Below are positions 1-16,419 of a stretch of DNA of 17,453 nucleotides, in pieces (position 1 is the first letter of the stretch; each line of letters begins with the position of its first letter). Below the pieces are notes generated by a model, which saw only the letters and a list, made by a program, of their open reading frames with translations, searched no databases and was not told the origin of the DNA. Made by a program: the position numbers and the translations under genes. The stretch covers positions 1 through 17,453 of the forward strand of contig JAWLEP010000049.1 in the NCBI GenBank assembly GCA_041686025.1. The letters run 5' to 3'. The DNA is from Candidatus Fermentibacteraceae bacterium (lineage in GTDB: Bacteria > Fermentibacterota > Fermentibacteria > Fermentibacterales > JCC-6).

Positions 1-872
1 CCCTTCCAGCCCACCTGCTTGAGGTAGGGGAACTTCAGGTAGGTCCAGGGCTCCACCCGCTCCTCGATGTGGTCGAGGTACTCCGAGGGGTGGAAGCGGG
101 CGAGCTCGGCGCCCTCCTGGTCGGTGACCCGCAGGTGGCCGTCGTAGAAGTCCACCCTGTTGTCCTCGTCCACGGTGCCGATGGAGTAGGTCTGGTGGGA
201 GTAGGCGTCGGACTTGATCATGGAGACGTAGCCCTTGTTGGACAGGACGATGTCGTCGAAGACCTTGAAGCCGAACTTGGCGAACTCCACCGCCTCTCCC
301 GCCATCTCCTCCACCAGCTCGCGGTCCTCCTCGGAGAGGGGCTGGGACATGCCGCCGGGAAGTCCGCAGACCGGGTGGACGGTGCGGCCGCCCAGCATCT
401 TGATGATCTCGTGGCAGTCGTGGCGGGTCTTGATCACCTTCTTGCCCACCTCGACGCCCACCTTCTCGATGAGGCCCAGTATGTTGCGCTGCGCCGGCGG
501 GGCGTCGGGGCCCACCACGAAGTCGGGGCCGGAGAGGATGTAGAAGTGGGTGGTGTGGTCGGCCACGTAGAAGGCGCTGTAGAAGAGCCGGCGGAGCTTT
601 ACTCCGGCCGGGGGCACCTCCACGTGATAGACCGCGTCGGCGGCCTTGGCCGAGGCCATGTGGTGGGCCTCGGGGCAGACGCCGCAGATGCGGGTGGTGA
701 TCCGGGCCAGCTCCTCCACCGGGTGGCCCTCGCAGAACTTCTCGAAGCCCCGCAGCTCGGGGACCTGGAAGTAGACGTTCTCCACCTTGCCGGCGTCGTC
801 GAGGAAGATCTCTATCTTGCCGTGGCCCTCCAGCCTGGTTATGGGGTCGACCGTTATCCTCTTGCTACTCAT
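1..872 (-). CDS. mvhA: [NiFe]-hydrogenase large subunit, group 3c (F420-non-reducing, Hdr-linked); 3' end outside window
   Basis: Not in the ORF track (no stop in window); translated by hand from ATG at 872: MSSKRITVDPITRLEGHGKIEIFLDDAG...ELRGFEKFCEG...TRICGVCPEAHH (L1 Ni-binding motif)...HFYILSGPDFVVG...GGRTVHP...ERVEPWTYLKFPYLKQVGWK. Overlaps the mvhG stop by 8 nt; SD GGAGGAGG upstream. Confidence 0.95.
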   Translation of the reverse strand, partial: MSSKRITVDPITRLEGHGKIEIFLDDAGKVENVYFQVPELRGFEKFCEGHPVEELARITTRICGVCPEAHHMASAKAADAVYHVEVPPAGVKLRRLFYSAFYVADHTTHFYILSGPDFVVGPDAPPAQRNILGLIEKVGVEVGKKVIKTRHDCHEIIKMLGGRTVHPVCGLPGGMSQPLSEEDRELVEEMAGEAVEFAKFGFKVFDDIVLSNKGYVSMIKSDAYSHQTYSIGTVDEDNRVDFYDGHLRVTDQEGAELARFHPSEYLDHIEERVEPWTYLKFPYLKQVGWK

Positions 873-1827
873 CCTCGGTCCTCCTCCGGAGTATCGAGTG
901 GGCCATGCCGAAGCGGTAGAAGGTGCCCAGGGGGAACGGTATCTGCCCCATTATCCTGCGGACCTCCTCGGGATCCTGGGAGTCGATGACCGAGCCCAGG
1001 GCGCTGACGATCTTCGCCCCCTGGTCGATCACCTCCGGCGGCGGGCCGTAGCAGCCCCTGCAGGGCATGCCCACGCTGGGGCACTGGGCGTCGCAGCCCG
1101 AACGGGTGGCTATGCCGGCGCAGAATATCCCCTGCTCCAGCAGGCACTTGTCCGGCTCGGGGTGTATCATGTGGGGCCTGACGAAGCCCGTGATCTTCTT
1201 CTCGTCCTTCTCCAGGGGGCACTCGTCGCAGACGATCTTCTCCCCCGCCCCCACCACGGAGCCCTTCTCGGGGAGGCTGCCGCCCAGGACCATCTCGAAG
1301 AAGGCCCAGGTCTGCTCCTCCACCGGAGGGCAGCCGGGGATGTAGTAGTCCACGTCCACCACCTGGCCCAGGGTCTTCACCGTCTCGTAGAACTCGGGGA
1401 GCTCCAGCTCCCCCTCGGGGACCTCGGTGCTGGTCTGGGGGTAGACCTTGTCGGGGTTGAGGGTGGACTCGGTCTCCTCGTAGGCGCGGTAGAGTATGTC
1501 CCCGCGCCTCTTGGCGTTGGCCAGGCCCGGTATGCAGCCCTCGTGGGCGCAGGAGCCGTAGGCGGCCAGCACCTTGGACTTCTGCCGCAGCAGATTGGCC
1601 ATCTCCTCGTTCTCGGAGGTGCGGATGGCGCCGTTGAAGAGGCAGAGGTCGATGTGGCCGTCGTCCATGGCCCGGACGTCGTCGTACTTGAAGTCCATGG
1701 CCGCCGGCCAGAAGACTATCTCCACCGCCTCGGCCAGCTGGAGTATCCGCTCGCCGATGTTCAGGACGGCTATCTCGCAGCCTCCGCAGCTCGCCGCCCA
1801 GTAGAACGCGACTCTGGGTTTGCTCAT
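865..1827 (-). CDS. mvhG: [NiFe]-hydrogenase small subunit, group 3c (320 aa)
   Basis: SCGGCE, AYGSCAHEGCIPGLAN, YIPGCPP, VCDECP, CLLEQGIFCAG, RSGCDAQCP..MPCRGCYG motifs; directly upstream of mvhA. Confidence 0.95.
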   Translation of the reverse strand: MSKPRVAFYWAASCGGCEIAVLNIGERILQLAEAVEIVFWPAAMDFKYDDVRAMDDGHIDLCLFNGAIRTSENEEMANLLRQKSKVLAAYGSCAHEGCIPGLANAKRRGDILYRAYEETESTLNPDKVYPQTSTEVPEGELELPEFYETVKTLGQVVDVDYYIPGCPPVEEQTWAFFEMVLGGSLPEKGSVVGAGEKIVCDECPLEKDEKKITGFVRPHMIHPEPDKCLLEQGIFCAGIATRSGCDAQCPSVGMPCRGCYGPPPEVIDQGAKIVSALGSVIDSQDPEEVRRIMGQIPFPLGTFYRFGMAHSILRRRTEDE

Positions 1828-1843
1828 ATCCGCATCACCCCGC

Positions 1844-3520
1844 CTACCGTATCGTGCCCTGGTACTCGGTGGTCAGCTGACGCTCCCGCACCTCGGGGTT
1901 GCTGTAGTCCGGCAGCAGCATCGGCGCGATCCGGTCGGTCTCCACGCCCTCCTTGTCCAGCTCCTCGTGGTAGCGGCGGACATGGTCCAGGTTCGGCTTG
2001 CCGGGCTCGCCCCCGGACTCGACGTAGCCGGCCGCCGCCTTCCCGGCGATGCGGCCGAAGACGATGACGTCCAGCAGCGAGTTGCCCATCAGGCGGTTCT
2101 CGCCGTGGACGCCGCCGCTGATCTCCCCGGATGCGAACAGGCCCGGCACCACGGTCTCGCAGTTGCTGTTGATGTCCAGGCCGCCGTTCTGGTAGTGGAG
2201 GGTGGGGTGGATCAGCATGGGCTCCTTTGCGATGTCGATTCCGTAGCGGCGGAACAGTATGTGCTTGCCCGGGAACTCCTTCTCCACCGTGCCCTCGCCC
2301 TTCAGCAGGTCGATCATGGGCGAGTCCAGCCAGACGCCGTACTTGCCGGTGGGAGTGGGTACGCCGTTGCCCCGGGCCTCGGAGCACTCCCGGATGATGC
2401 AGGCCGCCTCTACGTCCCGGGGCTCGCGCTCGTATACGAACTGCTCGCCGTGAACGTTGAGGACGTTGGCTCCGGCGCCGCGGAACTTCTCGGTTATCAG
2501 TATTCCCTCCGCCTGCTCGGGGAAGACCACCCCGGTGGGGTGGTACTGCACCGTGTGCAGGAAGGAGATGGGGACGCCGGCCCTGTAGCCCAGGACTATG
2601 CCGTCGGCTGTGGCCCCGTAGTGGTTGGTGGTCATGAAGCCCTGTATGTGCAGCCGTCCGCAGCCGCCGGTGGCCATGATCACCGCCTTGGCTTTGGCGT
2701 ACCGGTACTCCTTGGTCTCCAGGTTGTAGAGGATGGCTCCGCAGCAGCGGCCCTTCCCGTCCAGCACCAGCTCCACCGCCGGGCTGAACTCGATCACCTC
2801 GATCTCGTCTGCGTGGGAGCGGGCCTCGTCGCGGATGGTGCGCATTATCTCCGCACCGGTGATGTCGGCGGCGTAGTGCATGCGCTTGCGGCTGGTGCCT
2901 CCGCCGTGCATGGTCTTCAGCCTGCCGCCCTCCCCCTTGGAGAAGCTGGTGCCCAGGTTCTCCAGCCACTGCAGCGCCTCCGGGGCGTTGGTCACCAGGG
3001 TCTTCACCAGATCGGGGACGTTCTTGAAGTGGCCGCCTCCCAGCACGTCCAGGTAGTGGTAGTAGGGCGAGTCCTTCCAGGCCTTGGAGGAGGCCTGGAT
3101 GCCGCCCTCGGCCATCATGGTGTTGGCGTCGCCGTGGCGCAGCTTGGTGATCATGGTCACCTTGGCGCCGTTCTCAGCGGCCAGCAGGGAGGCCGCCGTC
3201 CCGGCCCCTCCCCCGCCGATCACCAGCACGTCGGTCTCGATGTCCGGCTCGGAGAGGTCGATGAGGTCGGGGTCCACCCGGCTGCGGGCCTCCAGCATGT
3301 CCACTATCTCGTTGGATATGGAGTAGCCCTTGTTGGGCCCCACGCCTATCTCCCTGCGGGTGCCCTCCCGGTAGTCGGGATGGAACTCCCGCAGCAGGGA
3401 GTCGCGGTCGTCCACGTCGATGGAGGGGAACTCCCAGCCGCTCTTCTTCTTCTCCACCCTCTCGGGCCTGGTCTCCTCCACCTTCTTTATCAGGTTCTTC
3501 AGGCTCTCCGGATAGGGCAT
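1844..3520 (-). CDS. SdhA/FrdA/NadB-family FAD-dependent oxidoreductase, flavoprotein subunit (paralog 1, 558 aa)
   Basis: DVLVIGGGGAG FAD motif, AEGG, ATGG, QYHPTG, LITE.FRG, EPRDV, PTLHYQNGG, GVHGENRLMGNSL. Lacks the covalent-FAD His and the usual long C-terminal domain. Confidence 0.92.
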   Translation of the reverse strand: MPYPESLKNLIKKVEETRPERVEKKKSGWEFPSIDVDDRDSLLREFHPDYREGTRREIGVGPNKGYSISNEIVDMLEARSRVDPDLIDLSEPDIETDVLVIGGGGAGTAASLLAAENGAKVTMITKLRHGDANTMMAEGGIQASSKAWKDSPYYHYLDVLGGGHFKNVPDLVKTLVTNAPEALQWLENLGTSFSKGEGGRLKTMHGGGTSRKRMHYAADITGAEIMRTIRDEARSHADEIEVIEFSPAVELVLDGKGRCCGAILYNLETKEYRYAKAKAVIMATGGCGRLHIQGFMTTNHYGATADGIVLGYRAGVPISFLHTVQYHPTGVVFPEQAEGILITEKFRGAGANVLNVHGEQFVYEREPRDVEAACIIRECSEARGNGVPTPTGKYGVWLDSPMIDLLKGEGTVEKEFPGKHILFRRYGIDIAKEPMLIHPTLHYQNGGLDINSNCETVVPGLFASGEISGGVHGENRLMGNSLLDVIVFGRIAGKAAAGYVESGGEPGKPNLDHVRRYHEELDKEGVETDRIAPMLLPDYSNPEVRERQLTTEYQGTIR

Positions 3521-4305
3521 TACTTACCTCCAGACCTGGCGGCCTCTTCGGGGTCCAGCACGTAGGTCGTGTCCTCGGGTGTCCAGTCGTCCTCGGCGTT
3601 GTCCGGCTCGGACTCGCGGTCCTTGTAGAGCTGTATCAGCTCCTTCTCCTCCATCTCCATGAGCTCGGCGAGGCCCTCCTCCCAGCGGCCGTCCTCTATG
3701 GCCGCAACCGCGGCCCTCAGGTGCTTGGACCTGGCTACGCCGTGGGCGGCGTGCAGCCGCCGGCAGAGGGTGGCCACGTGGTACTGGGCCTCCTCGGCCG
3801 GGCAGCGGGAGGCGCAGAGGCCGCAGCTGATGCAGTCGAAGGAGGTCTCCGCCACTCCGGCAATGTCCCCCCGGATGGCCTGGGCCATGTACTGCATCAC
3901 GTCGATGTCCATGGGGCAGCTCTGGGTGCAGGCGTTGCAGCCGATGCACTTGAATATCTCCGGGTAGAGCTCGGCCACCTCCTGCCCCGTGCCCTTCATC
4001 TCCGTGATGTCGTAGGAGGGCCGGTTGGCGGGGAAGAAGGGCAGCATGGTCAGGTACATGTCCGGCACCACCACGGTCTGGCAGGCCAGACCCACCTCGA
4101 TGCGGTAGCTTCCCGGGGTCCTGAAGACGGTGCCGCAGGCTCCGCAGACGCCGCCCCGGCAGCCGCAGCCGCGGATCAGCTGGTAGCCCGCGTACTCCAG
4201 GGCCTTCTGCACCGTGAGGCTGGCGGGCACCTCGAACCGCTCGCCCATCACGTAGATGGGCACCAACTCCTCTTCCATCGTCTGGGTATTCGTCTTCTCA
4301 GCCAT
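3520..4305 (-). CDS. SdhB/FrdB-like iron-sulfur protein ([2Fe-2S] + 2x[4Fe-4S]) (paralog 1, 261 aa)
   Basis: CRGGVCGAC...LACQT [2Fe-2S] motif; CIGCNACTQSCP and CISCGLCASRCP; TAATG stop/start overlap with the flavoprotein gene. Confidence 0.9.
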   Translation of the reverse strand: MAEKTNTQTMEEELVPIYVMGERFEVPASLTVQKALEYAGYQLIRGCGCRGGVCGACGTVFRTPGSYRIEVGLACQTVVVPDMYLTMLPFFPANRPSYDITEMKGTGQEVAELYPEIFKCIGCNACTQSCPMDIDVMQYMAQAIRGDIAGVAETSFDCISCGLCASRCPAEEAQYHVATLCRRLHAAHGVARSKHLRAAVAAIEDGRWEEGLAELMEMEEKELIQLYKDRESEPDNAEDDWTPEDTTYVLDPEEAARSGGK

Positions 4306-4720
4306 TGATCATCTCCCTCGCAGCCAGTCTCAGCGGGCCCATCTGGCGGAGCTGTTCGGTGAACTCGTCCATGACGGCGGCGAACTTCCTGCCCTCGGCG
4401 GCGGATATCCACTCCAGCCGCAGCCTCCGCTGGTCTACTCCGAAATCCTCCAGCAGGCGGTGCAGCAGGGCGGTGCGGGCCTGGGTGCGGTAGTTGCCGT
4501 CCTGGTAGTGGCAGTCGCCGGGATGGCAGCCGCCTATGAGAACGCCGTCGGCCCCCTCCCGGAAGGCCCAGAGCACGTGCTCGGGGTCCACCCGGCTGGA
4601 GCACATGAAGCGGATGTTGACGCCGCTGGGGGTGTACTGCAGGCGGGAGGTGCCCGCCAGGTCCGCCCCGGCGCTGGTGCACCACTTGCACAGAAAGCAG
4701 ACTATCCTAGGCTCGTACAT
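4298..4720 (-). CDS. mvhD: MvhD/FlpD [2Fe-2S] adaptor subunit (140 aa)
   Basis: IVCFLCKWC..AGADLAG.SRLQY, RFMCSSRV, GADGVLIGGCHPGDCHY.DGN, RLRLEWISAAEG; SD GGGGAGG just upstream. Confidence 0.96.
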   Translation of the reverse strand: MYEPRIVCFLCKWCTSAGADLAGTSRLQYTPSGVNIRFMCSSRVDPEHVLWAFREGADGVLIGGCHPGDCHYQDGNYRTQARTALLHRLLEDFGVDQRRLRLEWISAAEGRKFAAVMDEFTEQLRQMGPLRLAAREMING

Positions 4721-6682
4721 CTAGGCCTCCCCCAGGGTTGCGCTTATCATCTCGATCACCTGTCTGTCGGTGAGGTTGTGCTGCTGCGTGGCCCCGCAGC
4801 CGCAGGCGGCCACGCAGGCGCCGCAGCCCTCGCAGAGGGCCTCGTTGACGGTGGCGACCTCCTCCTCCTCGTCGAACTCCCGGGCGTCGTAGGGGCAGAC
4901 GGATATGCAGATCCTGCAGCCGCCGCACTCGTCCTCGTTCACCACGGCGATCATGGGGTCCTGCTCCATCTCCTCACGGCTGAACAGCGCCGCCACCTTC
5001 CCCGCTGCGGCGCCGGCCTGGGCCACAGTCTCGGGAATGTCCTTGGGGCCCTGGCCGCATCCGGCCAGGAAGAAGCCGGCGCTTATGGACTCCACCGGCC
5101 GGAGCTTGGGGTGCGCCTCGGTGGCGAAACCGTTGGGCCCCAGCTGTATCTTCAGCCTGGCCGCCAGCTCCGCAACCCCCGGACTGGGGGCTACTGCTGT
5201 GGCCAGGACCACCAGGTCGGCGGCTATCTCCACGTTGCGGCCGGTGAGGACGTCTGTGCCCCAGACCACGGTCCTGTCGCCCTCGCGGAAGATCTTGGCC
5301 ACCTTGCCCTTGAGGTAGACGATGCCCTCCTCCTCCTCGGCGCGGTGGTAGAACTCCTCGTATCCCTTTCCGCCGGTGCGGACGTCTATGTAGAAGACGT
5401 AGGGCTGGCCGTCGTGCACCCGGTGCTTGTAGAGCATGGCGTGCTTGGCCGTGTACATGCAGCAGATCTTCGAGCAGTAGGGCTGGTAGCGCTCCGGGTC
5501 GCGGGACCCGGCGCACTGCACGAAGACCACCTCCTTCGGCACCTTCCCGTCGGAGGGCCTGCGCACCTCCCCGCCGGTGGGTCCGGAGGCGGAGAGCAGC
5601 CGCTCGAAGGCCAGGCCGTCGATGACGTCGGGCACCTTGCCGCCGCCGTACTCGCGAATCTCCGTGACCGGCAGGGTCTCGTAGCCGGTGGCCACCACTA
5701 CCGCGCCCACCTCCTCCTCCAGCAGCTCGTCTTCCTGGTCGAAGCGGATGGCGTTTATCTCACAGGTCTTCTCGCAGACCCTGCACTTGCCGGTGGCGTA
5801 GTAGATGCAGGCGTCGCGGTCTATCACCGGCTTGTTGGGTACCGCCTGGGGAAAGGGGACGTAGATGGCCCCCCTCTGGTCCAGGCCCCGGTTGAACTCG
5901 TCGGGGGCCTTTGCCGGGCACTTCTCCATGCAATCCCCGCATCCGGTGCATATCGACCAGTCCACGCTGGGGGCCTTGCGGCGGATGCGGACGTTGAAGT
6001 TGCCCACGTACCCGGATATCTCGTCTATCTCCGAGTAGGTCATCAGCCGGACGTTGGGGTGCTTGCTCACCTCCACCATCTTGGGCGTCAGTATGCACTG
6101 CGAGCAGTCCAGCGTGGGGAAGGTCTCGGAGAGCTGGGCCATGTGGCCGCCTATGGAGGGATCGCGCTCCACCAGCACCACCTCGTAGCCGGCGTTGGCT
6201 ATGTCCAGGGCGGCCTGTATGCCTGCCACCCCTCCGCCCACCACCAGGGCCCGCCTGGTTATGGGCACCTTCACCGGCTCCAGCGACTCGTTGAGGTAGG
6301 TCTTGGCCACCATGGAGCGGATGATCCGCACCGCCTTGTCCGTGGCCTTCTCCCGATCCTTGTGCACCCAGCTGCACTGCTCGCGGATGTTGGCTATCTC
6401 GCACTGCCAGGCGTTCAGCCCGGCCTCCGCGGAGGCGGTCCGGAAGGTGAGCTCGTGCAGCGAGGGGGAGCAGGCGGCCACCACCACGGCGTCCAGTCCC
6501 TCCTCCTCTATCTTCTGCTGCACCAGCTGCTGGCCCGGATCGGAGCACATGTAGATGTAGTCGGTGGCGAACGCCACCCGGGGGTCCTCCCGCAGGCGCT
6601 CCACCACCGCCTCCACGTCCACGGTATCGGCGATGTTGATGCCGCAGTGGCAGACGAAGACTCCCACCTTCTTGTCGGCCAT
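4721..6682 (-). CDS. hdrA: Heterodisulfide reductase subunit A (electron-bifurcating flavoprotein), 653 aa
   Basis: VGVFVCHCGINIA, YMCS, AACSP, NIREQCSW, LVVGGGVAG, TFPTLDCSQC, inserted 2x[4Fe-4S] domain, QCAGSRD, YCSKICCMYTAK, KGYEEFY, EAHPKLRP, GPKDIP, C-terminal 2x CxxCxxCxxxC. Confidence 0.97.
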   Translation of the reverse strand: MADKKVGVFVCHCGINIADTVDVEAVVERLREDPRVAFATDYIYMCSDPGQQLVQQKIEEEGLDAVVVAACSPSLHELTFRTASAEAGLNAWQCEIANIREQCSWVHKDREKATDKAVRIIRSMVAKTYLNESLEPVKVPITRRALVVGGGVAGIQAALDIANAGYEVVLVERDPSIGGHMAQLSETFPTLDCSQCILTPKMVEVSKHPNVRLMTYSEIDEISGYVGNFNVRIRRKAPSVDWSICTGCGDCMEKCPAKAPDEFNRGLDQRGAIYVPFPQAVPNKPVIDRDACIYYATGKCRVCEKTCEINAIRFDQEDELLEEEVGAVVVATGYETLPVTEIREYGGGKVPDVIDGLAFERLLSASGPTGGEVRRPSDGKVPKEVVFVQCAGSRDPERYQPYCSKICCMYTAKHAMLYKHRVHDGQPYVFYIDVRTGGKGYEEFYHRAEEEEGIVYLKGKVAKIFREGDRTVVWGTDVLTGRNVEIAADLVVLATAVAPSPGVAELAARLKIQLGPNGFATEAHPKLRPVESISAGFFLAGCGQGPKDIPETVAQAGAAAGKVAALFSREEMEQDPMIAVVNEDECGGCRICISVCPYDAREFDEEEEVATVNEALCEGCGACVAACGCGATQQHNLTDRQVIEMISATLGEA

Positions 6683-7620
6683 CAGAGATCACCCCCCGCC
6701 GCGGCCCCGGCAACCTTCTCCAGGAATGGCGTGGGGTCCACGTGGTGCTTGTCGGTGGCGATGGTCTCCGGGCCCACCCCCAGGGCCAGGGCCAGCATCT
6801 CGGTGAAGTAGATAACGGGTATGCTCTTGGCCCCCGGGTAGCGGGCGGCTATGTCCTCCTGCCGGGAGTCCAGGTTGTAGTAGCAGAGGGGGCAGCTCAC
6901 CACGAAGGCCTCGGCCCCGTGGTCCATGGCCGACTCGATTATGTTGTGGCACAGCCTGGTGGAGGACTCGGGGAAGGACACGGAGAGGTAGGAGCCGCAG
7001 CAGACGGTTCTGTAGGGGTAGTCCACCGGCGTGCCGCCCATGGCGGTCACCAGGTCCTCCATGATGCTGGGGTCCTCCATGTCGTCCAGGCCCATCTCCT
7101 CCTCGGGTCGGAGCATCACGCAGCCGTAGTAGGGCGCGATGCTCATTCCCCCGAGGCTCACCTTCACCGCCTCGGCTATCCTGTCGTAGCCCACTACGTC
7201 GCGCAGGTACTCCATCAGGTGCATCACCCGCACGCCGCCCTCGTATGGCGTGTACTCCCCGGGGTCGGGCAGGTAGGCGCGCCTGGGCTCGTTCTCCGCC
7301 AGGAAGGCGTTGACCCTGGTCCTGTCCAGCTCGTTGCTGCGGATTCGGTAGTTGGCCCGCTTCAGGGAGTTGTAGCAGAAGTCGCATATGGTGACCAGGC
7401 GGTCGTCCCCCGCCTCCTGCACGTCCCGCAGGATGCGGATGGGGGCCACCAGGTTCATTATCCTCTCCTCGGATGGAGGGGGCACCGCCCCGCAGCACGT
7501 CCACTCCGGAACCTCCTCCAGCGCGAAGCCCAGCTTCTCCGCCGCGGCCAGCGCCGACGTCTCCAGGTGGGAGGAGCGGTCCTTCAGGGCGCACCCGGGG
7601 TAGTAGGGCACTCTGTTCAT
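6682..7620 (-). CDS. hdrB: Heterodisulfide reductase subunit B (two CCG domains), 312 aa
   Basis: YYPGC...WTCCG...CDFC and YYGC..LRP...VCCG...CPLC..NLD; IPVIYFTEMLALALG; TGATG coupling to hdrA. Confidence 0.95.
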   Translation of the reverse strand: MNRVPYYPGCALKDRSSHLETSALAAAEKLGFALEEVPEWTCCGAVPPPSEERIMNLVAPIRILRDVQEAGDDRLVTICDFCYNSLKRANYRIRSNELDRTRVNAFLAENEPRRAYLPDPGEYTPYEGGVRVMHLMEYLRDVVGYDRIAEAVKVSLGGMSIAPYYGCVMLRPEEEMGLDDMEDPSIMEDLVTAMGGTPVDYPYRTVCCGSYLSVSFPESSTRLCHNIIESAMDHGAEAFVVSCPLCYYNLDSRQEDIAARYPGAKSIPVIYFTEMLALALGVGPETIATDKHHVDPTPFLEKVAGAAAGGDL

Positions 7621-7657
7621 GATTCCTCCTGACGCTCGGCTGGTGCGCTCGGCCCGC

Positions 7658-8095
7658 TCATGTGGACAGCTTCCGGTAGGCGGAGACTATTCCGGGCTGG
7701 GGCACCTCCGCCGACTTCTCCGGGTCGATGCTGTCGGGGCCGAAGTGGTCCTCGCCCTCTGCCAGGGCCATCTGCCGGAGGACGTCCATCACCTTCTGGA
7801 TGTCGATCCCCCGCGGGCACCGGACGCTGCACTGCAGGCAGCTGGCGCATATCCAGATGGTCCTGCACCTGATGAGGGTATCCTTCTGGCCCAGCTGCGC
7901 CAGGTGCATCACGGTGCTGGGCAACAGGTCCATCTCCTCGGCCAGGGGGCATCCCGACGAGCAGTTTCCGCACTGGTAGCAGGCGAAGAGGTGCTCGCCG
8001 CTCAGCTCATCCAGCCTCCTGCCGAACTCCCCCCGGACGGTCTGCCTGTCCAGACGGATCCGGGGGCTCGTGTTCGGGCTGGTCTTCCCGGGCAT
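7658..8095 (-). CDS. hdrC: Heterodisulfide reductase subunit C (2x[4Fe-4S]), 145 aa
   Basis: CYQCGNCSSGCP and IWICASCLQCSVRCPRGID; strong SD GGAGAGGAGG before ATG 8095. Confidence 0.93.
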   Translation of the reverse strand: MPGKTSPNTSPRIRLDRQTVRGEFGRRLDELSGEHLFACYQCGNCSSGCPLAEEMDLLPSTVMHLAQLGQKDTLIRCRTIWICASCLQCSVRCPRGIDIQKVMDVLRQMALAEGEDHFGPDSIDPEKSAEVPQPGIVSAYRKLST

Positions 8096-8597
8096 GGTCC
8101 TCCTCTCCAGGGAACGGGCTCCCGCCGGGCGGCGGCCGCTCCGTGACCCTGACGGCTATCTCATCGGCAATCTGCTCGATCCGCTCCGAAAGGCGGGGGG
8201 AGAGAGAGCGGGTGAAGCCTTCCGGAGGATCTATCTCGATGGCGTAGAACAGTATCTCCGTGGGCATGGACAGACCCATGGAGCCGCCCAGCTCCAGGGC
8301 CTCGATTACGGACAGGTGATGAATGGAGTAGAGGGGGGAGTTGCTTCGAAGCTCGGCGGGCGACAGAGCCCGTAATGTTCCCGGGGGATGGCTTCCGGTG
8401 GAGACGGTGTCCACCACCACCAGCCGGCGGAACCCGTCCAGGCGGTCCAGGATGCAGATCCAGTCACAGGATGTGGGTATGACCTCCGGACCGCAGCTTC
8501 CGGAAAACCTGTCGCGGAGAAGCTCTGCGACCCTGTAGCCCGCGCCGTCGTCGCCCAGGATTGGGTTGCCCATTCCCAGGACAATGGTGTCAGGCAT
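8007..8597 (-). CDS. Hydrogenase maturation endopeptidase (HycI/HybD/HupD family)
   Basis: IVLGMGNPILGDDGAG, LVVVDTV, SIHHL, YAIE...LSP motifs; first gene of an operon ending in mvhGA. The C-terminal tail overlaps hdrC by 89 nt. Confidence 0.9.
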   Translation of the reverse strand: MPDTIVLGMGNPILGDDGAGYRVAELLRDRFSGSCGPEVIPTSCDWICILDRLDGFRRLVVVDTVSTGSHPPGTLRALSPAELRSNSPLYSIHHLSVIEALELGGSMGLSMPTEILFYAIEIDPPEGFTRSLSPRLSERIEQIADEIAVRVTERPPPGGSPFPGEEDHAREDQPEHEPPDPSGQADRPGGVRQEAG

Positions 8598-9099: not shown

Positions 9100-11496
9100 A
9101 TGAATGATGACAGCGGCGTGAGGATCGGCGTTTACGTATGCCACTGCGGGGGGAACATCTCCGAGGTGGTGGATGTGGAGGATGTGCGGGCGTTCGCGGA
9201 ATCCCGGGAGGGCGTGGTGTTCGCCAGGGACGACACGCACATGTGCTCGGACATCGGCCAGCAGATGGTGCTGAACGACATCCGCGAGCACGGTCTGGAC
9301 AGGGTGGTGATAGCCGCCTGCTCTCCCCAGTTCCAGGGCGAGACCTTCATGAGGGTGATGGAGAAGGCGGGCCTCTCCCCCTACCTGCTCAGCATGTCCA
9401 ACATCCGCGAGCAGTGCGCCTGGCCGCACTTCGACCGACCCGCCGAGGCCACGGCAAAGGCCAGGAGCCTGGTAGGGGCCGCCATCGCCAGGGTAAGGCA
9501 CGCCGAGGCCCTGGAGAAGAAGGTCATGCCCATCGGGAAGAGGGTGCTGGTTGTAGGGGGAGGCATCGCCGGAATACAGGCGGCGCTGGACCTGGGCGAC
9601 GCAGGCTTCGAGGTATACCTGATCGAAAAGGAGCCCAGCATAGGCGGGCACATGGCGCAGCTCTCCCGCACCTTCCCCACGGAGGACTGCTCGGCCTGCA
9701 TCCTCAGCCCCAAGATGGCCGACGTCCCCGCCAACGAGAACATCCATCTGATGACCTACACCGAGGTGAGGGACATAGACGGCTACCTGGGCAACTTCAC
9801 CGTCCGGGCCACCAGGAAGCCCCGCTACGTGGACGCCGAGAAGTGCGTCGCCTGCGGCGACTGCGAGGACGCCTGTCCCGTGGAGGTGCCCGACGGGTTC
9901 CAGGAGGGGCTGCGGACCAGGAAGGCCATCTACGTCCCCTTCGACTTCGCCGTCCCCCAGGCGAACCTGATCGACATGGACGCCTGCGTCTCCTGCGGCA
10001 GGTGCGTCAGGGCCTGCAAGGAGGACGCCATCGACTTCGACGACACCCCCGAGGAGATCGAGCTGAAGGTGGACACCATAGTGGTGGCCACCGGCTACGA
10101 CACATTCGACCCTTCGGAGAAGAAGGTCTACGGCTACGACAGGTACGATAACGTGATAACGGCCATGGAGATGGAGCGGATCATAGTCAACGCCGCCGAG
10201 GGCAGCCCGGTCAGGGACCCGGGGAAGAGGATAGGCTTCGTCCAGTGCGTGGGCTCCCGGGACGAGCAGATCGGAAGGGAGTACTGCTCCAAGGTGTGCT
10301 GCATGTACGCCACCAAGCTGGCCAGCCTGCTGAAGCACTCCGGACCGCACCGCGACATCTACGTCTTCTACACCGATCTCCGGGCCTCGGGCAAGGGCTT
10401 CGAGGAGTACTACAAGCGGGCCCAGGACATGGGGGTGAAGTACGTCCGGGGACGGGTGGCCGAGATAGCCGGAGACTCCCCCGAAGGCAAGGTTACGGTC
10501 AAGGTGGAGGACACCCTCACCAGACAGGTGATGGAGGGCGAGTTCGACACCGTGGTGCTGTCGGTGGGAATGGGGCTGTCGGCCTCCTCCGAGGGGATCG
10601 CCGACATGCTCAAGCTGGCCAGGAGCGAGGACGGCTTCCTCAAGGAGGCCCATCCCAAGTTCAAGCCGGTGGACACCAACAAGGAGGGCGTCTTCCTCGC
10701 CGGGACCGTACAGGCCCCGCGGGACATACCGGACACGGTGGCCTCGGCCAGCGCCGCCGCCTCCCGGGCCATCCGGCTGATGAACAGGGGCGAGTATCCC
10801 CTGGCGCCCCGGACCGCCTTCGTGCGGGAGGAGGCCTGCGACGGCTGCGGCCTGTGCGTGGCCGGGTGCCCCACGGCGGCCATATCCATCGAGGAGGGCC
10901 TGGCAGCGATCAACGACACCCTCTGCCTGGGGTGCGGCAGCTGCATCGCCGACTGTCCCCGGGAGGCGATTGACCTCCATCTCTTTACCTGCAGCCAGCT
11001 CGGGGACGAGATCGCGGCGGCCCTGGAGGGCAAGGCGGAGGACGAGGTCCGCGTCCTGGTGTTCGCCGACGACACCTGCACCTACAGACTGGCCGACTCG
11101 GTGGGCACGGCGAAGCGGTCCTACACTCCGGACTCGGTGCTGGTCCGCACCCCCAGCTCGGCCCGGATCACCCCGGCTCTGATGCTGCGGGCCTTCGCCC
11201 TGGGCGCCGACGGGATACTGATAGGAATGTGCGAGGACAGGTCCTCGCCTTACCCGCATGCGGGAGAGGCCACCCGCCGCAACATGGACAGGGCCAGGGC
11301 GGTCCTGGAGGAGGAGGGGGTCGATCCCGACAGGATCCGCTTCGCCACCTTCGTCACCGTGATGATCGGCGGCTTCGTGAGCACGGTGAACGGCCTGGCC
11401 GACCGCGCCGGGAGCCTCGGGCCAATTCCCGAGCGGAAGCGGAAGGCTCTGGTGGAGGGTCTGGGCGACAGACTGTTCGGCGAGGGGAGCGGCTGA
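9100..11496 (+). CDS. hdrA: HdrA fused to a C-terminal degenerate MvhD-like domain (~798 aa)
   Basis: Start revised from 8956 to 9100 (SD GAGGGA; homology begins at RIGVYVCHCGGNIS). HMCS, AACSP, NIREQCAW, LVVGGGIAG, TFPTEDCSAC, four CxxCxxCxxxC motifs, QCVGSRD, YCSKVCCMYATK, KGFEEYY, EAHPKFKP; from ~11047 MvhD-like (RAFALGADGILIGMC, GVDPDRIR). Confidence 0.95.
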   Translation: MNDDSGVRIGVYVCHCGGNISEVVDVEDVRAFAESREGVVFARDDTHMCSDIGQQMVLNDIREHGLDRVVIAACSPQFQGETFMRVMEKAGLSPYLLSMSNIREQCAWPHFDRPAEATAKARSLVGAAIARVRHAEALEKKVMPIGKRVLVVGGGIAGIQAALDLGDAGFEVYLIEKEPSIGGHMAQLSRTFPTEDCSACILSPKMADVPANENIHLMTYTEVRDIDGYLGNFTVRATRKPRYVDAEKCVACGDCEDACPVEVPDGFQEGLRTRKAIYVPFDFAVPQANLIDMDACVSCGRCVRACKEDAIDFDDTPEEIELKVDTIVVATGYDTFDPSEKKVYGYDRYDNVITAMEMERIIVNAAEGSPVRDPGKRIGFVQCVGSRDEQIGREYCSKVCCMYATKLASLLKHSGPHRDIYVFYTDLRASGKGFEEYYKRAQDMGVKYVRGRVAEIAGDSPEGKVTVKVEDTLTRQVMEGEFDTVVLSVGMGLSASSEGIADMLKLARSEDGFLKEAHPKFKPVDTNKEGVFLAGTVQAPRDIPDTVASASAAASRAIRLMNRGEYPLAPRTAFVREEACDGCGLCVAGCPTAAISIEEGLAAINDTLCLGCGSCIADCPREAIDLHLFTCSQLGDEIAAALEGKAEDEVRVLVFADDTCTYRLADSVGTAKRSYTPDSVLVRTPSSARITPALMLRAFALGADGILIGMCEDRSSPYPHAGEATRRNMDRARAVLEEEGVDPDRIRFATFVTVMIGGFVSTVNGLADRAGSLGPIPERKRKALVEGLGDRLFGEGSG

Positions 11497-11903
11497 TGGA
11501 GATCAGAAGGCTCATCGTTACCGACGAGGCCGTGGAGCTCACGGCCAGGGTTTCGGAGCTCAGCGGGGAGTCCGTCACCAGGTGCGACCAGTGCGGAACC
11601 TGCTCCGCCAGCTGCCCCATGGTGGCGGAGATGGACATCACGCCGTCGCAGATGATGAGGATGGTGCAGCTGGGGCTTCCGGAGGTGATGGAGACCAGGG
11701 CCATGTGGCTCTGCGCCTCCTGCTACGCATGCACCGTCCGCTGCCCCCGGGGCCTGGACCTCTCCAGGGTTGCGGAGGCGCTGCGGCAGATCACCCTGCG
11801 GCAGGCCATCGACTACATTCGCATAGAGGAGATCCCCCCAGAGGAGCTGGAGCGGCTTCCCCAGGTGGCCCTGATCAGCGCCATGAGAAAGTTCACGGGA
11901 TGA
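11496..11903 (+). CDS. hdrC: Heterodisulfide reductase subunit C (135 aa)
   Basis: Start at TGATG overlap with the hdrA2 stop; CDQCGTCSASCP and MWLCASCYACTVRCPRGLD; ends SAMRKFTG like the paralog's SAYRKLST. Confidence 0.93.
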   Translation: MEIRRLIVTDEAVELTARVSELSGESVTRCDQCGTCSASCPMVAEMDITPSQMMRMVQLGLPEVMETRAMWLCASCYACTVRCPRGLDLSRVAEALRQITLRQAIDYIRIEEIPPEELERLPQVALISAMRKFTG

Positions 11904-11911
11904 GGTCTCAG

Positions 11912-12823
11912 ATGAGGATACCGTACTACCCCGGATGCACACTGAAGACGAAGGCCGACAGCTTCGAGACATCCGCCCTGGCTGCGGCGGCGAGGCTGGG
12001 GGTGGACCTGGTGGAGCTGCCCAGATGGAACTGCTGCGGCGCAGTCTACTCACTGGCGGACGATGACCTGATCCACCACGTGGCGGCGGTCCGGAACCTG
12101 GTCCGGGTGCAGGAGATGAACGAAAGCGGCCTGGTGGAGGACGAGCTCCGGCTGGTCACCCTTTGCTCCATGTGCTTCAACACACTGAAGCGAAGCAATC
12201 TCCGCATGCTGGAGAACCCCGAGGACCTGGAGAAGATCAACGCCCTGATGGACCGGGAGGACGACTACCTGGGGAAGGTGGAGGTTGTCCACTTCCTGGA
12301 GATCCTTCGGGAGATCGGTTTCCAGCGGATCGGCGAGCTGGTGGAGAGGCCCCTGGCCGATCTCAGGATCGCCCCCTACTACGGATGCATGCTGCTGCGT
12401 CCCGCCGAGGCCGGCATCGATGACCCCGAAGAGCCCTCGGTGCAGGAGGAGCTGCTCTCGGCCCTGGGGGCCGAGCCGGTGGACACCCCGTACAAGAAGG
12501 TCTGCTGCGGCAGCTACCAGACCGTGAGGGACCCGTCCGCGGTGGCCGGCCTGGCCTACGACATTCTGGAGCACGCGCGGAGCGCGGGGGCGGAGGCCGT
12601 GGTCACCAGCTGCCCACTCTGCGCCTTCAACCTGGACTCGCGCCAGAGGGAGGTCCGGGAAGAGCATCCCTCCTTCCAGGAGATCCCTGTACTCTACTTC
12701 ACCCAGCTGATGGCGCTGGCCCTGGGCCTGGGGGCGGACCGATGCGGATTCCACCGCAACTACGTGAACCCGGAGCCGCTGCTGAGACACAAGGGCCTTA
12801 TTCGGGAGGAGGACCATGGATAA
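11912..12823 (+). CDS. hdrB: Heterodisulfide reductase subunit B (~303 aa; alternative start 11900)
   Basis: MRIPYYPGC...WNCCG...CSMC; YYGCMLLRP...VCCG...CPLCAFNLD; IPVLYFTQLMALALG. Confidence 0.94.
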   Translation: MRIPYYPGCTLKTKADSFETSALAAAARLGVDLVELPRWNCCGAVYSLADDDLIHHVAAVRNLVRVQEMNESGLVEDELRLVTLCSMCFNTLKRSNLRMLENPEDLEKINALMDREDDYLGKVEVVHFLEILREIGFQRIGELVERPLADLRIAPYYGCMLLRPAEAGIDDPEEPSVQEELLSALGAEPVDTPYKKVCCGSYQTVRDPSAVAGLAYDILEHARSAGAEAVVTSCPLCAFNLDSRQREVREEHPSFQEIPVLYFTQLMALALGLGADRCGFHRNYVNPEPLLRHKGLIREEDHG

Positions 12824-13604
12824 CGACAGCACCCCTTCGGAGGGCAAGAGGCTGGACCTGGAAGAGATAATGTCGCGGATCTCCGAGGCCAGCAGGCAGG
12901 TGGTCTCCGGTGTTGAAACCGAGAAGGTGAAGAACTGGGTGACCATCCACATCATGGGAAGGGCATACCGGGTTCCCGCCGACCTCACCATCCTCACCGC
13001 CATGGAGTACGCGGGCTACAGGTTCGTGCGGGGCGTGGGATGCAGGCAGGGCTTCTGCGGCGCCTGCTCCACCCTCTACAGGAGGGAGGGTGATTACCGG
13101 CTGCAGGCGGGCCTGGCGTGCCAGACCCGGGTGGAGGACGGGATGTACCTGGTCCAGATCCCCTTCAGCCCCGCGGCCAAGCCCCCCTACGACATCTCGG
13201 AGCTGGACTGCGACGAGAGCACCCTCTTCGAGTTCTACCCCGAGCTGGCCAGGTGCGTGTCCTGCAACACCTGCACCAAGGCCTGTCCCCAGGACATCGA
13301 GGTGATGGACTACGTCCAGGCGGCCATCAAGGGCGACTTCGAGGCGCTGGCCGAGGGCTCCTTCGACTGCATCCAGTGCGGCCTCTGCGCCATAAGGTGC
13401 CCGGCGGAGATCGTCCAGTACAACGTGGGGCAGCTGGGCAGAAGGCTGTACGGAAGGTACGGGAGTCCCGAGCCGGAGCACCTTGCGAGACGGCTGGAGG
13501 AGATCGAGGCCGGCGAGTTCGACGAGGGTCTGGACCGGCTGGTGGCCATGGACCGGGAGGAGCTGGAGAGGCTCTACGCCGAAAGGGAGAGGGAGAAGGA
13601 GTAG
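12816..13604 (+). CDS. SdhB/FrdB-like iron-sulfur protein (paralog 2, 262 aa)
   Basis: CRQGFCGAC...LACQT; CVSCNTCTKACP; CIQCGLCAIRCP; SD GGAGGAGG; clearly similar to 3520..4305. Confidence 0.9.
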   Translation: MDNDSTPSEGKRLDLEEIMSRISEASRQVVSGVETEKVKNWVTIHIMGRAYRVPADLTILTAMEYAGYRFVRGVGCRQGFCGACSTLYRREGDYRLQAGLACQTRVEDGMYLVQIPFSPAAKPPYDISELDCDESTLFEFYPELARCVSCNTCTKACPQDIEVMDYVQAAIKGDFEALAEGSFDCIQCGLCAIRCPAEIVQYNVGQLGRRLYGRYGSPEPEHLARRLEEIEAGEFDEGLDRLVAMDREELERLYAEREREKE

Positions 13605-13607
13605 CCG

Positions 13608-15266: not shown

Positions 15267-15283
15267 CCCCCCGCCGGGTCAGA
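15262..15283. terminator. Hairpin at the convergent gene junction (possible bidirectional terminator/pause)
   Basis: TCTGACCC-cccgcc-GGGTCAGA 8 bp stem containing both stop codons; no U-tract. Confidence 0.35.
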
Positions 15284-15980: not shown

Positions 15981-16003
15981 CGTCCTCTTCCCGTCCGGGC
16001 GGG

Positions 16004-16034
16004 GACGGGCCGGGACGGGGTGCCCCGGCCCGTC
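16004..16034. terminator. GC-rich 11 bp stem-loop downstream of dodecin
   Basis: GACGGGCCGGG-9 nt-CCCGGCCCGTC, 8 nt after the dodecin stop; no U-tract. Confidence 0.45.
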
Positions 16035-16042
16035 ATGCCGGA

Positions 16043-16246
16043 CTACTCGTCCAGAACGAAGGTCACCTTCATGTCCACCCGGAAACGGGAAACGCTGTTT
16101 CCGTCGATGTCAACGTTGAACTCCTTGATCCAGGCTCCCTGGATGTTGTTGAGGGTCTTTCCCGCCCTCTCGATGCCCTTCCTGATGGCGTCCTCGAATC
16201 CCTCAGTGGAGCTGGAGCTGATCTCTGTTACCTTGGCTACCGACAT
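16043..16246 (-). CDS. Dodecin family protein (67 aa)
   Basis: MSVAKVTEISSSSTEGFEDAIRKGIERAGKTLNNIQGAWIKE...FRVDMKVTFVLDE; SD GAAAGGA before ATG 16246 (start revised from 16306). Confidence 0.9.
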   Translation of the reverse strand: MSVAKVTEISSSSTEGFEDAIRKGIERAGKTLNNIQGAWIKEFNVDIDGNSVSRFRVDMKVTFVLDE

Positions 16247-16419
16247 ATCGTTCCTTTCCGTTTGGCAGAAACCTCTATCACCCCTCGCCTGCGGGACGGT
16301 CCGCAACGAAGCCTCATATGGCTAATTACCTCATGTTGCCGCCGCGGTACATGGGGCTTTCCCCGATTCGGCAGTGCCTGTATCTTCGATCCTCACTCCC
16401 GCTTCGGAAGGTGGTTCGC

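What the first reader, a model, noticed from the sequence alone, without database searches (positions are those of the whole stretch)
1..8597. Anchorless Frd/Sdh-like pair embedded inside an MvhADG-HdrABC operon: candidate soluble H2-driven bifurcating reductase
Seen: gene order protease-hdrC-hdrB-hdrA-mvhD-[Fe-S]-[flavoprotein]-mvhG-mvhA, with overlapping or adjacent stops and starts from hdrB through the flavoprotein. The Frd-like pair splits mvhD from mvhGA, and no SdhC/D anchor, Flx or DsrC is encoded in the window. Known: methanogen MvhADG-HdrABC bifurcates H2 electrons to ferredoxin and CoM-S-S-CoB, and methanogen thiol:fumarate reductase TfrAB is a soluble FrdA plus an FrdB-CCG fusion. 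Inference: here the high-potential branch may end at a fumarate-like acceptor, either directly through HdrBC Fe-S clusters or through a recycled thiol/disulfide. That would give H2 -> ferredoxin + reduced organic acid with no quinone. I do not know of a characterised complex of this composition.
Basis: partly seen in the sequence, partly recalled or inferred. Interest (0 to 1): 0.85.

Follow-up and report, generated by a model that had tools for sequence, protein, structure and literature searches.

The report
Hydrogenase-Hdr operon with soluble fumarate reductase
An uncultured anaerobic bacterium packs a hydrogenase, an electron-splitting Hdr module and a membrane-free fumarate-reductase-like enzyme into one tight gene row, which likely uses hydrogen to reduce fumarate and ferredoxin together without quinones; similar gene sets and the idea are already in print, and the reaction remains untested here.

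Summary
Observation confirmed: protease-hdrC-hdrB-hdrA-mvhD-FeS-flavoprotein-mvhG-mvhA, minus strand. The flavoprotein keeps all seven fumarate-site residues, has Asn for the covalent-FAD His, and belongs to a distinct soluble subfamily. The genome shows no Sdh anchor, quinone pathway, DsrC or ComA.

The pair follows Hdr rather than the hydrogenase. hdrB and hdrC lie beside it in 54 of 55 loci. Within the phylum, mvhD and mvhGA were lost at least three times while hdrA and the pair stayed. Cultured Ilyobacter carries aspartase-Hdr-Flx plus the pair; Cupriavidus carries a NuoF-like partner. Against: 19 of 40 second-clade loci lack hdr nearby.

Best reading (0.5): H2 + fumarate + ferredoxin → succinate + reduced ferredoxin, likely wired directly, since four of five relatives have only one CCG protein. 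Binding was not tested (complex tool unavailable).

Not new as an idea: Rubin-Blum 2019 and Koendjbiharie 2020 propose the NADH version, Williams 2021 reports an Mvh-Hdr-TFR cluster, and this scan found it at least eight times on other DNA. No enzyme assay turned up in nine searches. Interest 0.45.

The parts
8007..8597 (-). Hydrogenase maturation protease (HycI family); the ORF's tail overlaps the start of hdrC
   Evidence: Pfam PF01750 E 7.9e-6; TIGR00072 88 bits over cut-off 47
7658..8095 (-). HdrC, two [4Fe-4S] motifs, 145 aa
   Evidence: TIGR03290 E 3.6e-18, below cut-off; eight Cys invariant in 45 rows
6682..7620 (-). HdrB, two complete CCG domains (10 Cys); Val where methanogen HdrB has His after the sixth Cys
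   Evidence: PF02754 twice; 10 Cys in 80 of 80 homologues; aligned to PDB HdrB chains, E 1e-33 to 3e-38
4721..6682 (-). Full-length HdrA, 653 aa, with E360 and K413 matching E356 and K409 of 5ODC
   Evidence: 5odc_A E 3e-206 over residues 2-646; motifs; numbering read from the 5ODC alignment; role of the residues from PMC12054007
4298..4720 (-). MvhD with all five conserved Cys
   Evidence: PF02662 E 2.8e-50; sequence
3520..4305 (-). Small Fe-S subunit: [2Fe-2S] (C49, C54, C57, C75) plus two [4Fe-4S] motifs in a short helical ferredoxin domain; no CCG domain, no predicted membrane helix
   Evidence: 12 Cys in 88 of 88 homologues; model pLDDT 73; fold rows for 2Fe-2S domains, NfnB, RnfC, HdrC at Z 6.6-9; hydropathy
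1844..3520 (-). Soluble FrdA/TfrA-like flavoprotein, 558 aa: about 90-residue N-terminal extension, short C-terminus (72 residues after the motif that is followed by 201 in FrdA), Asn133 in place of the covalent-FAD His, H327/T343/E344/R347/R368/H442/R476 intact
   Evidence: Best NCBIfam TfrA 329 bits, cut-off 718; residue census in 93 homologues; Foldseek to SdhA/FrdA, TM about 0.6
865..1827 (-). MvhG/VhuG-like hydrogenase small subunit
   Evidence: NF045875 E 1.9e-59
1..872 (-). MvhA/VhuA-like [NiFe] large subunit, N-terminal 290 aa, cut by the contig end
   Evidence: NF041785 E 2.8e-80; whole in G041 with a C-terminal DPCxxCxxH motif
9100..11496 (+). Second HdrA (798 aa) fused to an MvhD-like domain that keeps only 2 of 5 Cys; E359 and K406 present
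   Evidence: 31 of 31 database homologues of the C-terminal domain lack three or more of the five Cys
11496..11903 (+). Second HdrC, 43% identical to the first
11912..12823 (+). Second HdrB, 45% identical, 10 Cys intact
12816..13604 (+). Second Fe-S subunit, 50% identical, 12 Cys intact
13608..15266 (+). Second flavoprotein, 50% identical, same active site and same Asn; falls in a separate deep clade of the subfamily

Best explanation
The minus-strand gene row encodes a group-3c-type hydrogenase, HdrABC and a soluble fumarate-reductase-like pair, which likely work as one cytoplasmic enzyme that would split electrons from H2 at the HdrA flavin, sending one arm to ferredoxin and the other, probably directly through the Fe-S clusters of HdrC/HdrB and the small Fe-S subunit, to fumarate. 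Net reaction, inferred: 2 H2 + fumarate + 2 Fd(ox) -> succinate + 2 Fd(red). Succinate would go on to propionate through succinyl-CoA synthetase, methylmalonyl-CoA mutase and a sodium-pumping decarboxylase, and reduced ferredoxin would be used by Rnf or the membrane hydrogenase; those genes are in the genome, the flux is inferred. The Fe-S/flavoprotein pair is a modular output unit: the donor side varies (Mvh, Flx, FdhB-like, NuoF-like, none). Shown: gene content, residues, linkage, losses. Inferred: substrate, direction, complex formation, bifurcation, direct wiring.
For: Fumarate site: six residues in 93 of 93 homologues and the seventh (R368) in 92 of 93; all seven in 72 of 72 second-clade proteins. 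The genome has a separate NadB, E 5e-143 to E. coli NadB. Neighbours point to C4 acids: aspartate ammonia-lyase upstream of Hdr-Flx-pair in Ilyobacter polytropus, which ferments fumarate to propionate and has no cytochromes (PMC3035301); sucCD-fumAB facing the flavoprotein in G069; sucCD downstream in 15 of the 94 loci clustered; fumarase, malic enzyme or sucC beside L137, L139, L142, L177, L178, L179, L202. Direction: Asn for the covalent-FAD His in 93 of 93; that non-covalent FAD favours reduction is recalled knowledge. dG -13 to -39 kJ at 10 Pa H2 for fumarate/succinate 0.01-1 (recalled potentials). Hdr link: hdrB and hdrC within 10 kb in 54 of 55 loci; 31 of 31 phylum genomes with the HdrA orthologue have the flavoprotein, 38 of 70 have neither (kin, not independent). 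Direct wiring: the operon's HdrB is the only CCG protein in 4 of 5 relatives, and both CCG proteins of G000 are in this window; no ComA or DsrC. Downstream pathway genes.
Against: Mvh is dispensable: 8 of 30 phylum loci lost mvhD (absent or a 3' remnant; mvhG also absent in the 7 with enough downstream DNA), none of those 8 genomes has an MvhG orthologue (best 36%), and the losses fall in at least three places of the gene tree. 32 of 55 loci have no hdrA nearby, and 17 of 38 such genomes gave no full-length HdrA (completeness not given). 19 of 40 second-clade loci have no hdr gene nearby, although the five placed in the tree form one nested clade. HdrB keeps both CCG clusters in 80 of 80 homologues, which suits thiol chemistry as well as electron relay. 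In Endoriftia tfrAB did not share the expression pattern of the rest of the cluster (PMC11636981). No aspartase or DcuA/B hit in G000, so fumarate must come from malate.
Confidence: 0.5

Rival explanations
1. Same chemistry through a thiol shuttle: Mvh-HdrABC reduces an unknown disulfide, and a separate HdrBC-FeS-flavoprotein complex (a split thiol:fumarate reductase) reoxidises the thiol while reducing fumarate.
For: Both CCG domains intact in 80 of 80 HdrB. The four-gene row hdrC-hdrB-FeS-flavoprotein stands without hdrA in 31 of 55 loci and has the cofactor set of TfrAB plus HdrC (TfrB content from PMC11223495). Best family hit is TfrA. A GcvH homologue is present. Williams 2021 draws this route; Rubin-Blum 2019 offers it as one of two.
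Against: One CCG protein per genome in 4 of 5 relatives, so one HdrB would have to serve both complexes. No ComA, no DsrC. The His after the sixth Cys of methanogen HdrB is absent in 80 of 80.
Confidence: 0.2
2. Reverse direction: the complex oxidises succinate by confurcating its electrons with those of reduced ferredoxin onto protons, making H2 during propionate or amino-acid breakdown, without a membrane potential.
For: The same genome has the whole methylmalonyl-CoA route, Kor-type enzymes, fumarase and malic enzyme. Hamilton 2016 reads the related MLS_C genome (source of L006) as a propionate oxidiser (PMC4846661). Syntrophales-type loci carry the pair before sucCD. The reverse becomes favourable only near 1 Pa H2 or less with Fd at -500 mV and fumarate/succinate 0.001.
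Against: No covalent-FAD His (meaning recalled). The soluble NADH enzyme of Hydrogenobacter is described as irreversible (PMC13147460). The cultured carriers are succinate or propionate producers. No citrate synthase hit with the E. coli query.
Confidence: 0.13
3. No obligatory bifurcation: HdrABC only conducts electrons from reduced ferredoxin (or directly from NADH at HdrA) to fumarate as an electron sink, and Mvh is an optional add-on. This is the likeliest reading of the second operon and of the Mvh-less relatives.
For: Repeated loss of mvhD and mvhGA; conserved Cys-depleted MvhD fusion; NuoF-like partner in Pseudoroseomonas and, by position and length, in Cupriavidus.
Against: In this operon MvhD is intact and coupled on both sides; both HdrA keep K409/E356 equivalents; 19 of 30 phylum loci keep mvhG.
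Confidence: 0.1
4. Type-E-like succinate:quinone oxidoreductase in which the CCG protein is a monotopic membrane anchor, or an acceptor other than fumarate.
For: HdrB also matches the MFR anchor SdhE model (129 bits, cut-off 500); two [4Fe-4S] motifs rather than [4Fe-4S]+[3Fe-4S].
Against: No hits for menB, menC, menD, menF or MqnA/D; the one UbiA-family protein scores best as decaprenyl-phosphate phosphoribosyltransferase; HdrB model scores higher (165 bits); fumarate site complete.
Confidence: 0.07

Closest known systems
MvhADG-HdrABC of hydrogenotrophic methanogens (PDB 5ODC, 8RVU)
   Same: All six subunits; full-length HdrA with K409/E356 equivalents; MvhD with five Cys; HdrB with ten Cys.
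   Different: No ComA in the genome; HdrB lacks the His after the sixth Cys; an Fe-S/flavoprotein pair sits between mvhD and mvhG.
Mvh-Hdr-TFR-OGOR cluster of Ca. Celaenobacter (Williams et al. 2021, PMC8542988; passages read)
   Same: Group 3c Mvh, Hdr and a 'TFR' in one cluster, read as functionally linked and H2-driven.
   Different: There Kor, fumarase and succinyl-CoA synthetase are in the cluster, the setting is rTCA carbon fixation and the route is drawn through CoM/CoB; here those genes lie on other contigs (C67, C77). I could not compare the sequences.
Flx-Hdr-fumarate reductase: 'succinate operon' of Pseudoclostridium thermosuccinogenes (PMC7282089, passages) and flx-hdr-kor-tfr of tubeworm symbionts (PMC6315080, passages and supplement passages)
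   Same: HdrABC plus an anchorless two-gene fumarate reductase, proposed to couple succinate formation to ferredoxin reduction. The Ilyobacter operon found here has the same 7+2 gene count and a 56%-identical flavoprotein.
   Different: NADH (Flx) is the donor, not H2. Those papers give expression data and hypotheses; sequence identity to their proteins was not tested.
Thiol:fumarate reductase TfrAB of Methanothermobacter (Heim 1998, not read; described through PMC11223495)
   Same: Soluble; [2Fe-2S] plus two [4Fe-4S]; best NCBIfam hit for the flavoprotein.
   Different: 329 of 718 bits, matching only residues 94-503; N-terminal extension and short C-terminus; the Fe-S subunit has no fused CCG domain.
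Soluble NADH-dependent fumarate reductase FrdABCDE of Hydrogenobacter thermophilus (Miura 2008, not held; described through PMC13147460)
   Same: Soluble, quinone-free fumarate reduction; recalls the FeS-flavoprotein-NuoF-like operons found here.
   Different: Five subunits, no Hdr; relation to this subfamily not tested.

Membership tests
MvhADG-HdrABC (methanogen) | MvhA, MvhG, MvhD, HdrA, HdrB, HdrC all present with cluster ligands | tested here: met
   MvhA C-terminal motif seen only in the relative G041
MvhADG-HdrABC (methanogen) | HdrA K409 and E356 | tested here: met
   K413/E360
MvhADG-HdrABC (methanogen) | CoM-S-S-CoB as acceptor (CoM synthesis in the cell) | tested here: not met
   No ComA in a 94.75% complete genome; one marker only
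MvhADG-HdrABC (methanogen) | Coupled reduction of ferredoxin and acceptor by H2 | not testable with these tools
   Needs an enzyme assay
Fumarate reductase/succinate dehydrogenase flavoprotein superfamily | FAD_binding_2 fold and dicarboxylate-site His/Thr/Glu/Arg set | tested here: met
Complex II (SdhABCD/FrdABCD) | Covalent-FAD His | tested here: not met
   Asn in 93 of 93 and 72 of 72
Complex II (SdhABCD/FrdABCD) | Membrane anchor and quinone | tested here: not met
TfrAB thiol:fumarate reductase | TfrA equivalog score | tested here: not met
   329 and 288 bits against cut-off 718
TfrAB thiol:fumarate reductase | CCG domain fused to the Fe-S subunit | tested here: not met
   261-aa subunit without CCG; a separate HdrB is co-encoded
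L-aspartate oxidase NadB | NadB score, stand-alone flavoprotein | tested here: not met
   273 of 453 bits; true NadB on C12; Fe-S gene adjacent in 70 of 74 loci
Type E SQR / MFR SdhABE | CCG anchor of the SdhE type | tested here: inconclusive
   129 and 144 bits against SdhE (cut-off 500), 165 and 167 against HdrB (cut-off 345); neither passes
Proposed Hdr-linked soluble fumarate reductases (Rubin-Blum 2019, Koendjbiharie 2020, Williams 2021) | hdrABC and an anchorless two-gene fumarate reductase in one cluster with a donor module | tested here: met
Proposed Hdr-linked soluble fumarate reductases (Rubin-Blum 2019, Koendjbiharie 2020, Williams 2021) | Same flavoprotein subfamily as the published proteins | not tested
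   Their sequences were not retrieved; Ilyobacter (56%) is my stand-in
Type Ia HdrA (HdrA2-MvhD fusion of Methanosarcina), for the second operon | Fused MvhD carrying a [2Fe-2S] cluster | tested here: not met
   2 of 5 Cys; the M. acetivorans protein is reported with the cluster (PMC5296606)

The most novel reading that the evidence does not exclude
A directly wired, thiol-free, quinone-free Mvh-HdrABC-FrdAB complex in which fumarate replaces the methanogen disulfide. Coupled to Rnf or the ion-pumping membrane hydrogenase in the same genome, it would be fumarate respiration on H2 built like cytochrome-free methanogenesis, spread over thousands of sequence clusters of anaerobes, with the cluster-less HdrA~MvhD copy as a donor-less second form. 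It would name the missing high-potential acceptor for a large share of bacterial HdrABC, and Ilyobacter polytropus DSM 2926 makes the NADH form testable now.
Probability: 0.3. Interest if true: 0.75.

Novelty: new member of a known kind. Interest (0 to 1): 0.45.

Why it matters
What HdrABC reduces in cells without coenzymes M and B or DsrC is an open question. If fumarate is that acceptor, many uncultured anaerobes could make reduced ferredoxin and succinate from H2 or NADH with no quinone. The small Fe-S subunit alone has at least 7,927 sequence clusters (capped at 8,000 candidates). The idea is in print, so the value here is added constraint: one CCG protein per genome, repeated loss of the hydrogenase with retention of Hdr plus the pair, a conserved cluster-less MvhD fusion, and a cultured host for the assay.

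Tried and rejected
RNA runs: 4 of 7 listed runs laid; only short, low-depth contigs over most of the window, intergenic DNA included, so DNA cannot be excluded and nothing follows on expression or habitat. Promoter/terminator scan: 1 and 6 sites against 1.5 and 4.9 by chance. Search with the N-terminal 79 residues against protein representatives: 262 hits, mostly fragments; it showed no unrelated carrier of note and was not followed up. Fold search of the Fe-S subunit: best Z 9, common 2Fe-2S and helical ferredoxin folds; no SdhB/FrdB chain among the 50 rows, which does not exclude kinship. Its likeness to HdrC is limited to the 56-column dicluster. The careful tree did not finish; the quick tree has 45 rows, five intended rows (L022, L028, L035, L051, L064) were dropped by my length/motif filter, and the outgroup branches are long. 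Rejected: NadB, APS reductase (PDB AprA only E 4e-4; Asr/Apr context absent), recent duplication of the two operons (50% identity, separate clades, second copy found in 3 of 70 genomes and not in the closest relative G041). Papers not held: Miura 2008, the Koendjbiharie 2019 preprint, which may contain biochemical data I could not see. Passages of PMC7325909, PMC12590816, PMC9723716, PMC6019823 and PMC6776889 did not describe this operon.
Full report
OBSERVATION. The window is the whole contig C49 of a 2.70 Mb, 94.75% complete genome. The closest named relatives of the flavoprotein (77-78% identity) are Ca. Aegiribacteria and Fermentibacteraceae, so I read the host as a Fermentibacterota bacterium. 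Gaps from hdrC onward are 37, -1, 0, -8, -1, 16 and -8 bases. mvhA runs off the contig; G041, a genome of the same genus, has the same order with a complete MvhA.

THE PAIR. The flavoprotein has the Sdh/Frd fold (Foldseek TM about 0.6 to SdhA and FrdA, model pLDDT 75). Its best family is TfrA at 329 bits, far below the cut-off of 718. Against E. coli FrdA, the dicarboxylate-site residues are H327, T343, E344, R347, R368, H442 and R476: six are present in 93 of 93 homologues and R368 in 92 of 93; the covalent-FAD His is Asn in 93 of 93. The second clade gives 72 of 72 at all eight positions. The protein has about 90 extra residues at the N-terminus and a much shorter C-terminus than FrdA. In a quick tree the subfamily is one clade with support 100 on a long stem, and the window's two copies fall in separate deep branches (45 rows, careful search unfinished). 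The Fe-S subunit has a [2Fe-2S] and two [4Fe-4S] motifs, 12 Cys in 88 of 88 homologues, and no CCG domain. No protein of either operon has a hydropathy peak like FrdC or SdhC (maximum 1.65 against 2.4). It is not NadB: a true NadB lies on C12.

THE HDR-MVH PART. HdrA is full length (5odc_A, E 3e-206). E360 and K413 match E356 and K409 of 5ODC, residues proposed to mark bifurcating HdrA (PMC12054007, passages). MvhD has its five Cys, which matters because its [2Fe-2S] cluster feeds the HdrA flavin (PMC6019823, passages). HdrB keeps ten Cys in 80 of 80 homologues but not the His that follows the sixth Cys in methanogen HdrB.

GENOME SETTING. Not found: Sdh_cyt, DsrC, ComA, MqnA/D, and hits to E. 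coli sdhB/C/D, frdB/C/D, menB/C/D/F, aspA, gltA, dcuA/B (single-protein queries). The only UbiA-family protein scores best as a decaprenyl-phosphate phosphoribosyltransferase. Found: sucC-sucD-fumA-fumB-malic enzyme on C67; methylmalonyl-CoA mutase, MeaB, epimerase, an MmdA-like subunit (825 of 999 bits), a biotin carrier and an OAD_beta sodium-pump subunit on C56/C13; Rnf; five POR_N enzymes; a group-4-type membrane hydrogenase with antiporter-like and Asr/Flx-like subunits on C1; a second, unlinked MvhAG-like pair on C22; GcvH. The only two CCG proteins are the two HdrB in this window. In 4 of 5 relatives tested, 93-98% complete, the operon's HdrB is the only CCG protein.

SYNTENY. The Fe-S gene is adjacent in 70 of 74 loci with room. 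Of 55 loci with 9 kb upstream, 54 have hdrB and hdrC, 23 hdrA, 20 mvhD; of 44 that also have 3 kb downstream, 2 have mvhG/A. Three layouts recur: the full row in this phylum; hdrC-hdrB-FeS-flavoprotein alone in Ignavibacteria, Zixibacteria, Myxococcota and others; and hdrA-hdrC-hdrB-hdrA(long)-mvhD-FeS protein-pair in Syntrophales-like genomes, often before sucCD. Of 38 four-gene genomes, 21 have a full-length HdrA elsewhere, 16 only shorter matches and 1 none (completeness not given). For the second clade, 21 of 40 metagenome loci with 7 kb upstream have an hdr gene and 19 do not. Those 19 repeat a few neighbourhoods; the neighbours I scanned include no Sdh anchor family, though four had no Pfam hit; five of them form one nested clade. 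This is the main result against a strict Hdr link.

A NATURAL EXPERIMENT IN THE PHYLUM. Among 70 genomes, 32 have the flavoprotein orthologue (74% or more) and 31 the HdrA orthologue (72% or more); all 31 are among the 32, and 38 have neither (one lineage, not independent events). Of 30 loci, 19 have mvhG directly after the flavoprotein, 8 do not and 3 end too early; mvhD is intact in 20, absent or a remnant in 8, unseen in 2. The 8 genomes without mvhD have no MvhG orthologue (none in 5, 33-36% in 3). They fall in three separate places on the flavoprotein gene tree, and the four I checked keep 3' remnants of different length. Genes on both sides of the pair were shed while hdrA and the pair stayed. 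The stable unit is Hdr plus the pair; the hydrogenase is one of several inputs.

OTHER INPUTS, AND A CULTURED HOST. A plasmid search found Ilyobacter polytropus DSM 2926 at 56% identity: aspartate ammonia-lyase, hdrB, hdrC, hdrA, mvhD, three Flx-like genes, Fe-S, flavoprotein. This organism ferments fumarate and malate to acetate, formate and propionate and has no cytochromes (PMC3035301, passages). Pseudoroseomonas has Fe-S, flavoprotein and a NuoF-like gene; Cupriavidus metallidurans has the same order followed by a gene I recognise from recall as dctA. Both keep the Asn and have Ser for the Thr.

THE SECOND OPERON. Its HdrA keeps E359 and K406 but the fused MvhD domain has 2 of 5 Cys. All 31 database homologues of that domain, and 9 of 10 long HdrA proteins in the metagenome loci (the tenth is cut by a contig end), lack at least three. 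It likely cannot hold the [2Fe-2S] input cluster, unlike HdrA2 of Methanosarcina acetivorans (PMC5296606, passages). It may be a donor-less ferredoxin:fumarate form or pair with a normal HdrA; L138, L173 and L202 also carry an intact mvhD. A full-length second flavoprotein was found in 3 of 70 genomes.

MECHANISM. With recalled potentials, 2 H2 + fumarate + 2 Fd(ox) -> succinate + 2 Fd(red) gives -70 to -85 kJ at 1 bar and -13 to -39 kJ at 10 Pa for fumarate/succinate 0.01-1; it turns positive only near 1 Pa or below with strongly reducing ferredoxin and a low ratio. I put 0.5 on H2-driven bifurcation with likely direct wiring, 0.2 on a thiol shuttle, 0.13 on reverse (succinate-oxidising) confurcation, 0.1 on a non-bifurcating sink and 0.07 on a quinone-linked or other-substrate enzyme. 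No step of the chemistry and no binding was shown.

WHAT IS IN PRINT. Rubin-Blum 2019 proposes for flx-hdr-kor-tfr both a thiol route and a direct complex (PMC6315080; passages and supplement passages). Mitchell 2024 finds the cluster co-expressed except tfrAB (PMC11636981, passages). Koendjbiharie 2020 describes the P. thermosuccinogenes succinate operon and assumes fumarate reduction is linked to ferredoxin reduction (PMC7282089, passages). Williams 2021 reports TFR, OGOR, fumarase, succinyl-CoA synthetase, group 3c Mvh and Hdr in one cluster of Ca. Celaenobacter (PMC8542988, passages). A 2026 survey repeats the hypothesis as a suggestion (PMC13147460, passages). Searches listed no purified Hdr-fumarate reductase complex; subscription papers, Miura 2008 and the 2019 preprint were out of reach. 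This scan reported the arrangement at least eight times on other DNA; those are unchecked notes and I used them only as leads.

VERDICT. Real, conserved and biochemically open, but not a new idea. New member of a proposed kind. Interest 0.45; the boldest reading (direct, thiol-free, quinone-free fumarate respiration) has probability about 0.3 and would deserve 0.75.

Noticed in passing
window 9100-15266 (+): Second Hdr-Frd operon, divergent from the first, with a Cys-depleted MvhD domain fused to HdrA; not found in the closest relative G041.
   Followed up: yes
L086, L088, L091, L093, L096, L099, L100, L101: Relatives that lost mvhD and lack an MvhG orthologue but keep hdrA and the pair; at least three separate losses.
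   Followed up: yes
L216:5873-16614 (Ilyobacter polytropus plasmid pILYOP01): aspA-hdrBCA-mvhD-flx-like-FeS-flavoprotein operon in a cultured fumarate fermenter; a ready test system.
   Followed up: partly
L217:9264-12901, L218:9255-12858: Aerobic proteobacteria carry the same pair with a NuoF-like gene: candidate three-subunit soluble NADH:fumarate reductase.
   Followed up: partly
L133:6904-13653 (G000 C22): A second MvhAG-like hydrogenase without hdr or mvhD, among a ferredoxin-like protein, a V4R-like ORF, a DnaA-like ATPase and MglA/MglB-like ORFs (these names from recall of the sequences); looks like a sensory cluster.
   Followed up: no
L219:825-8000 (G000 C1): Group-4-type membrane hydrogenase preceded by AsrA/AsrB-like (sulfhydrogenase beta/gamma-like) genes, suggesting an NAD(P)H-linked energy-converting complex.
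   Followed up: partly
L163, L169, L214: The pair lies between hydrogenase maturation genes and an NfnAB-like pair.
   Followed up: no
L141, L164, L186, L202, L215: Kor-type genes interspersed with hdr and the pair, as in the published tubeworm and Celaenobacter clusters.
   Followed up: no
window 15279-17453: Glyoxalase II-like hydrolase, dodecin (flavin-binding) and a GHMP kinase; no sign of a link to the operons.
   Followed up: no
several genomes: Many full-length HdrA matches contain a single in-frame TGA, possibly selenocysteine.
   Followed up: no
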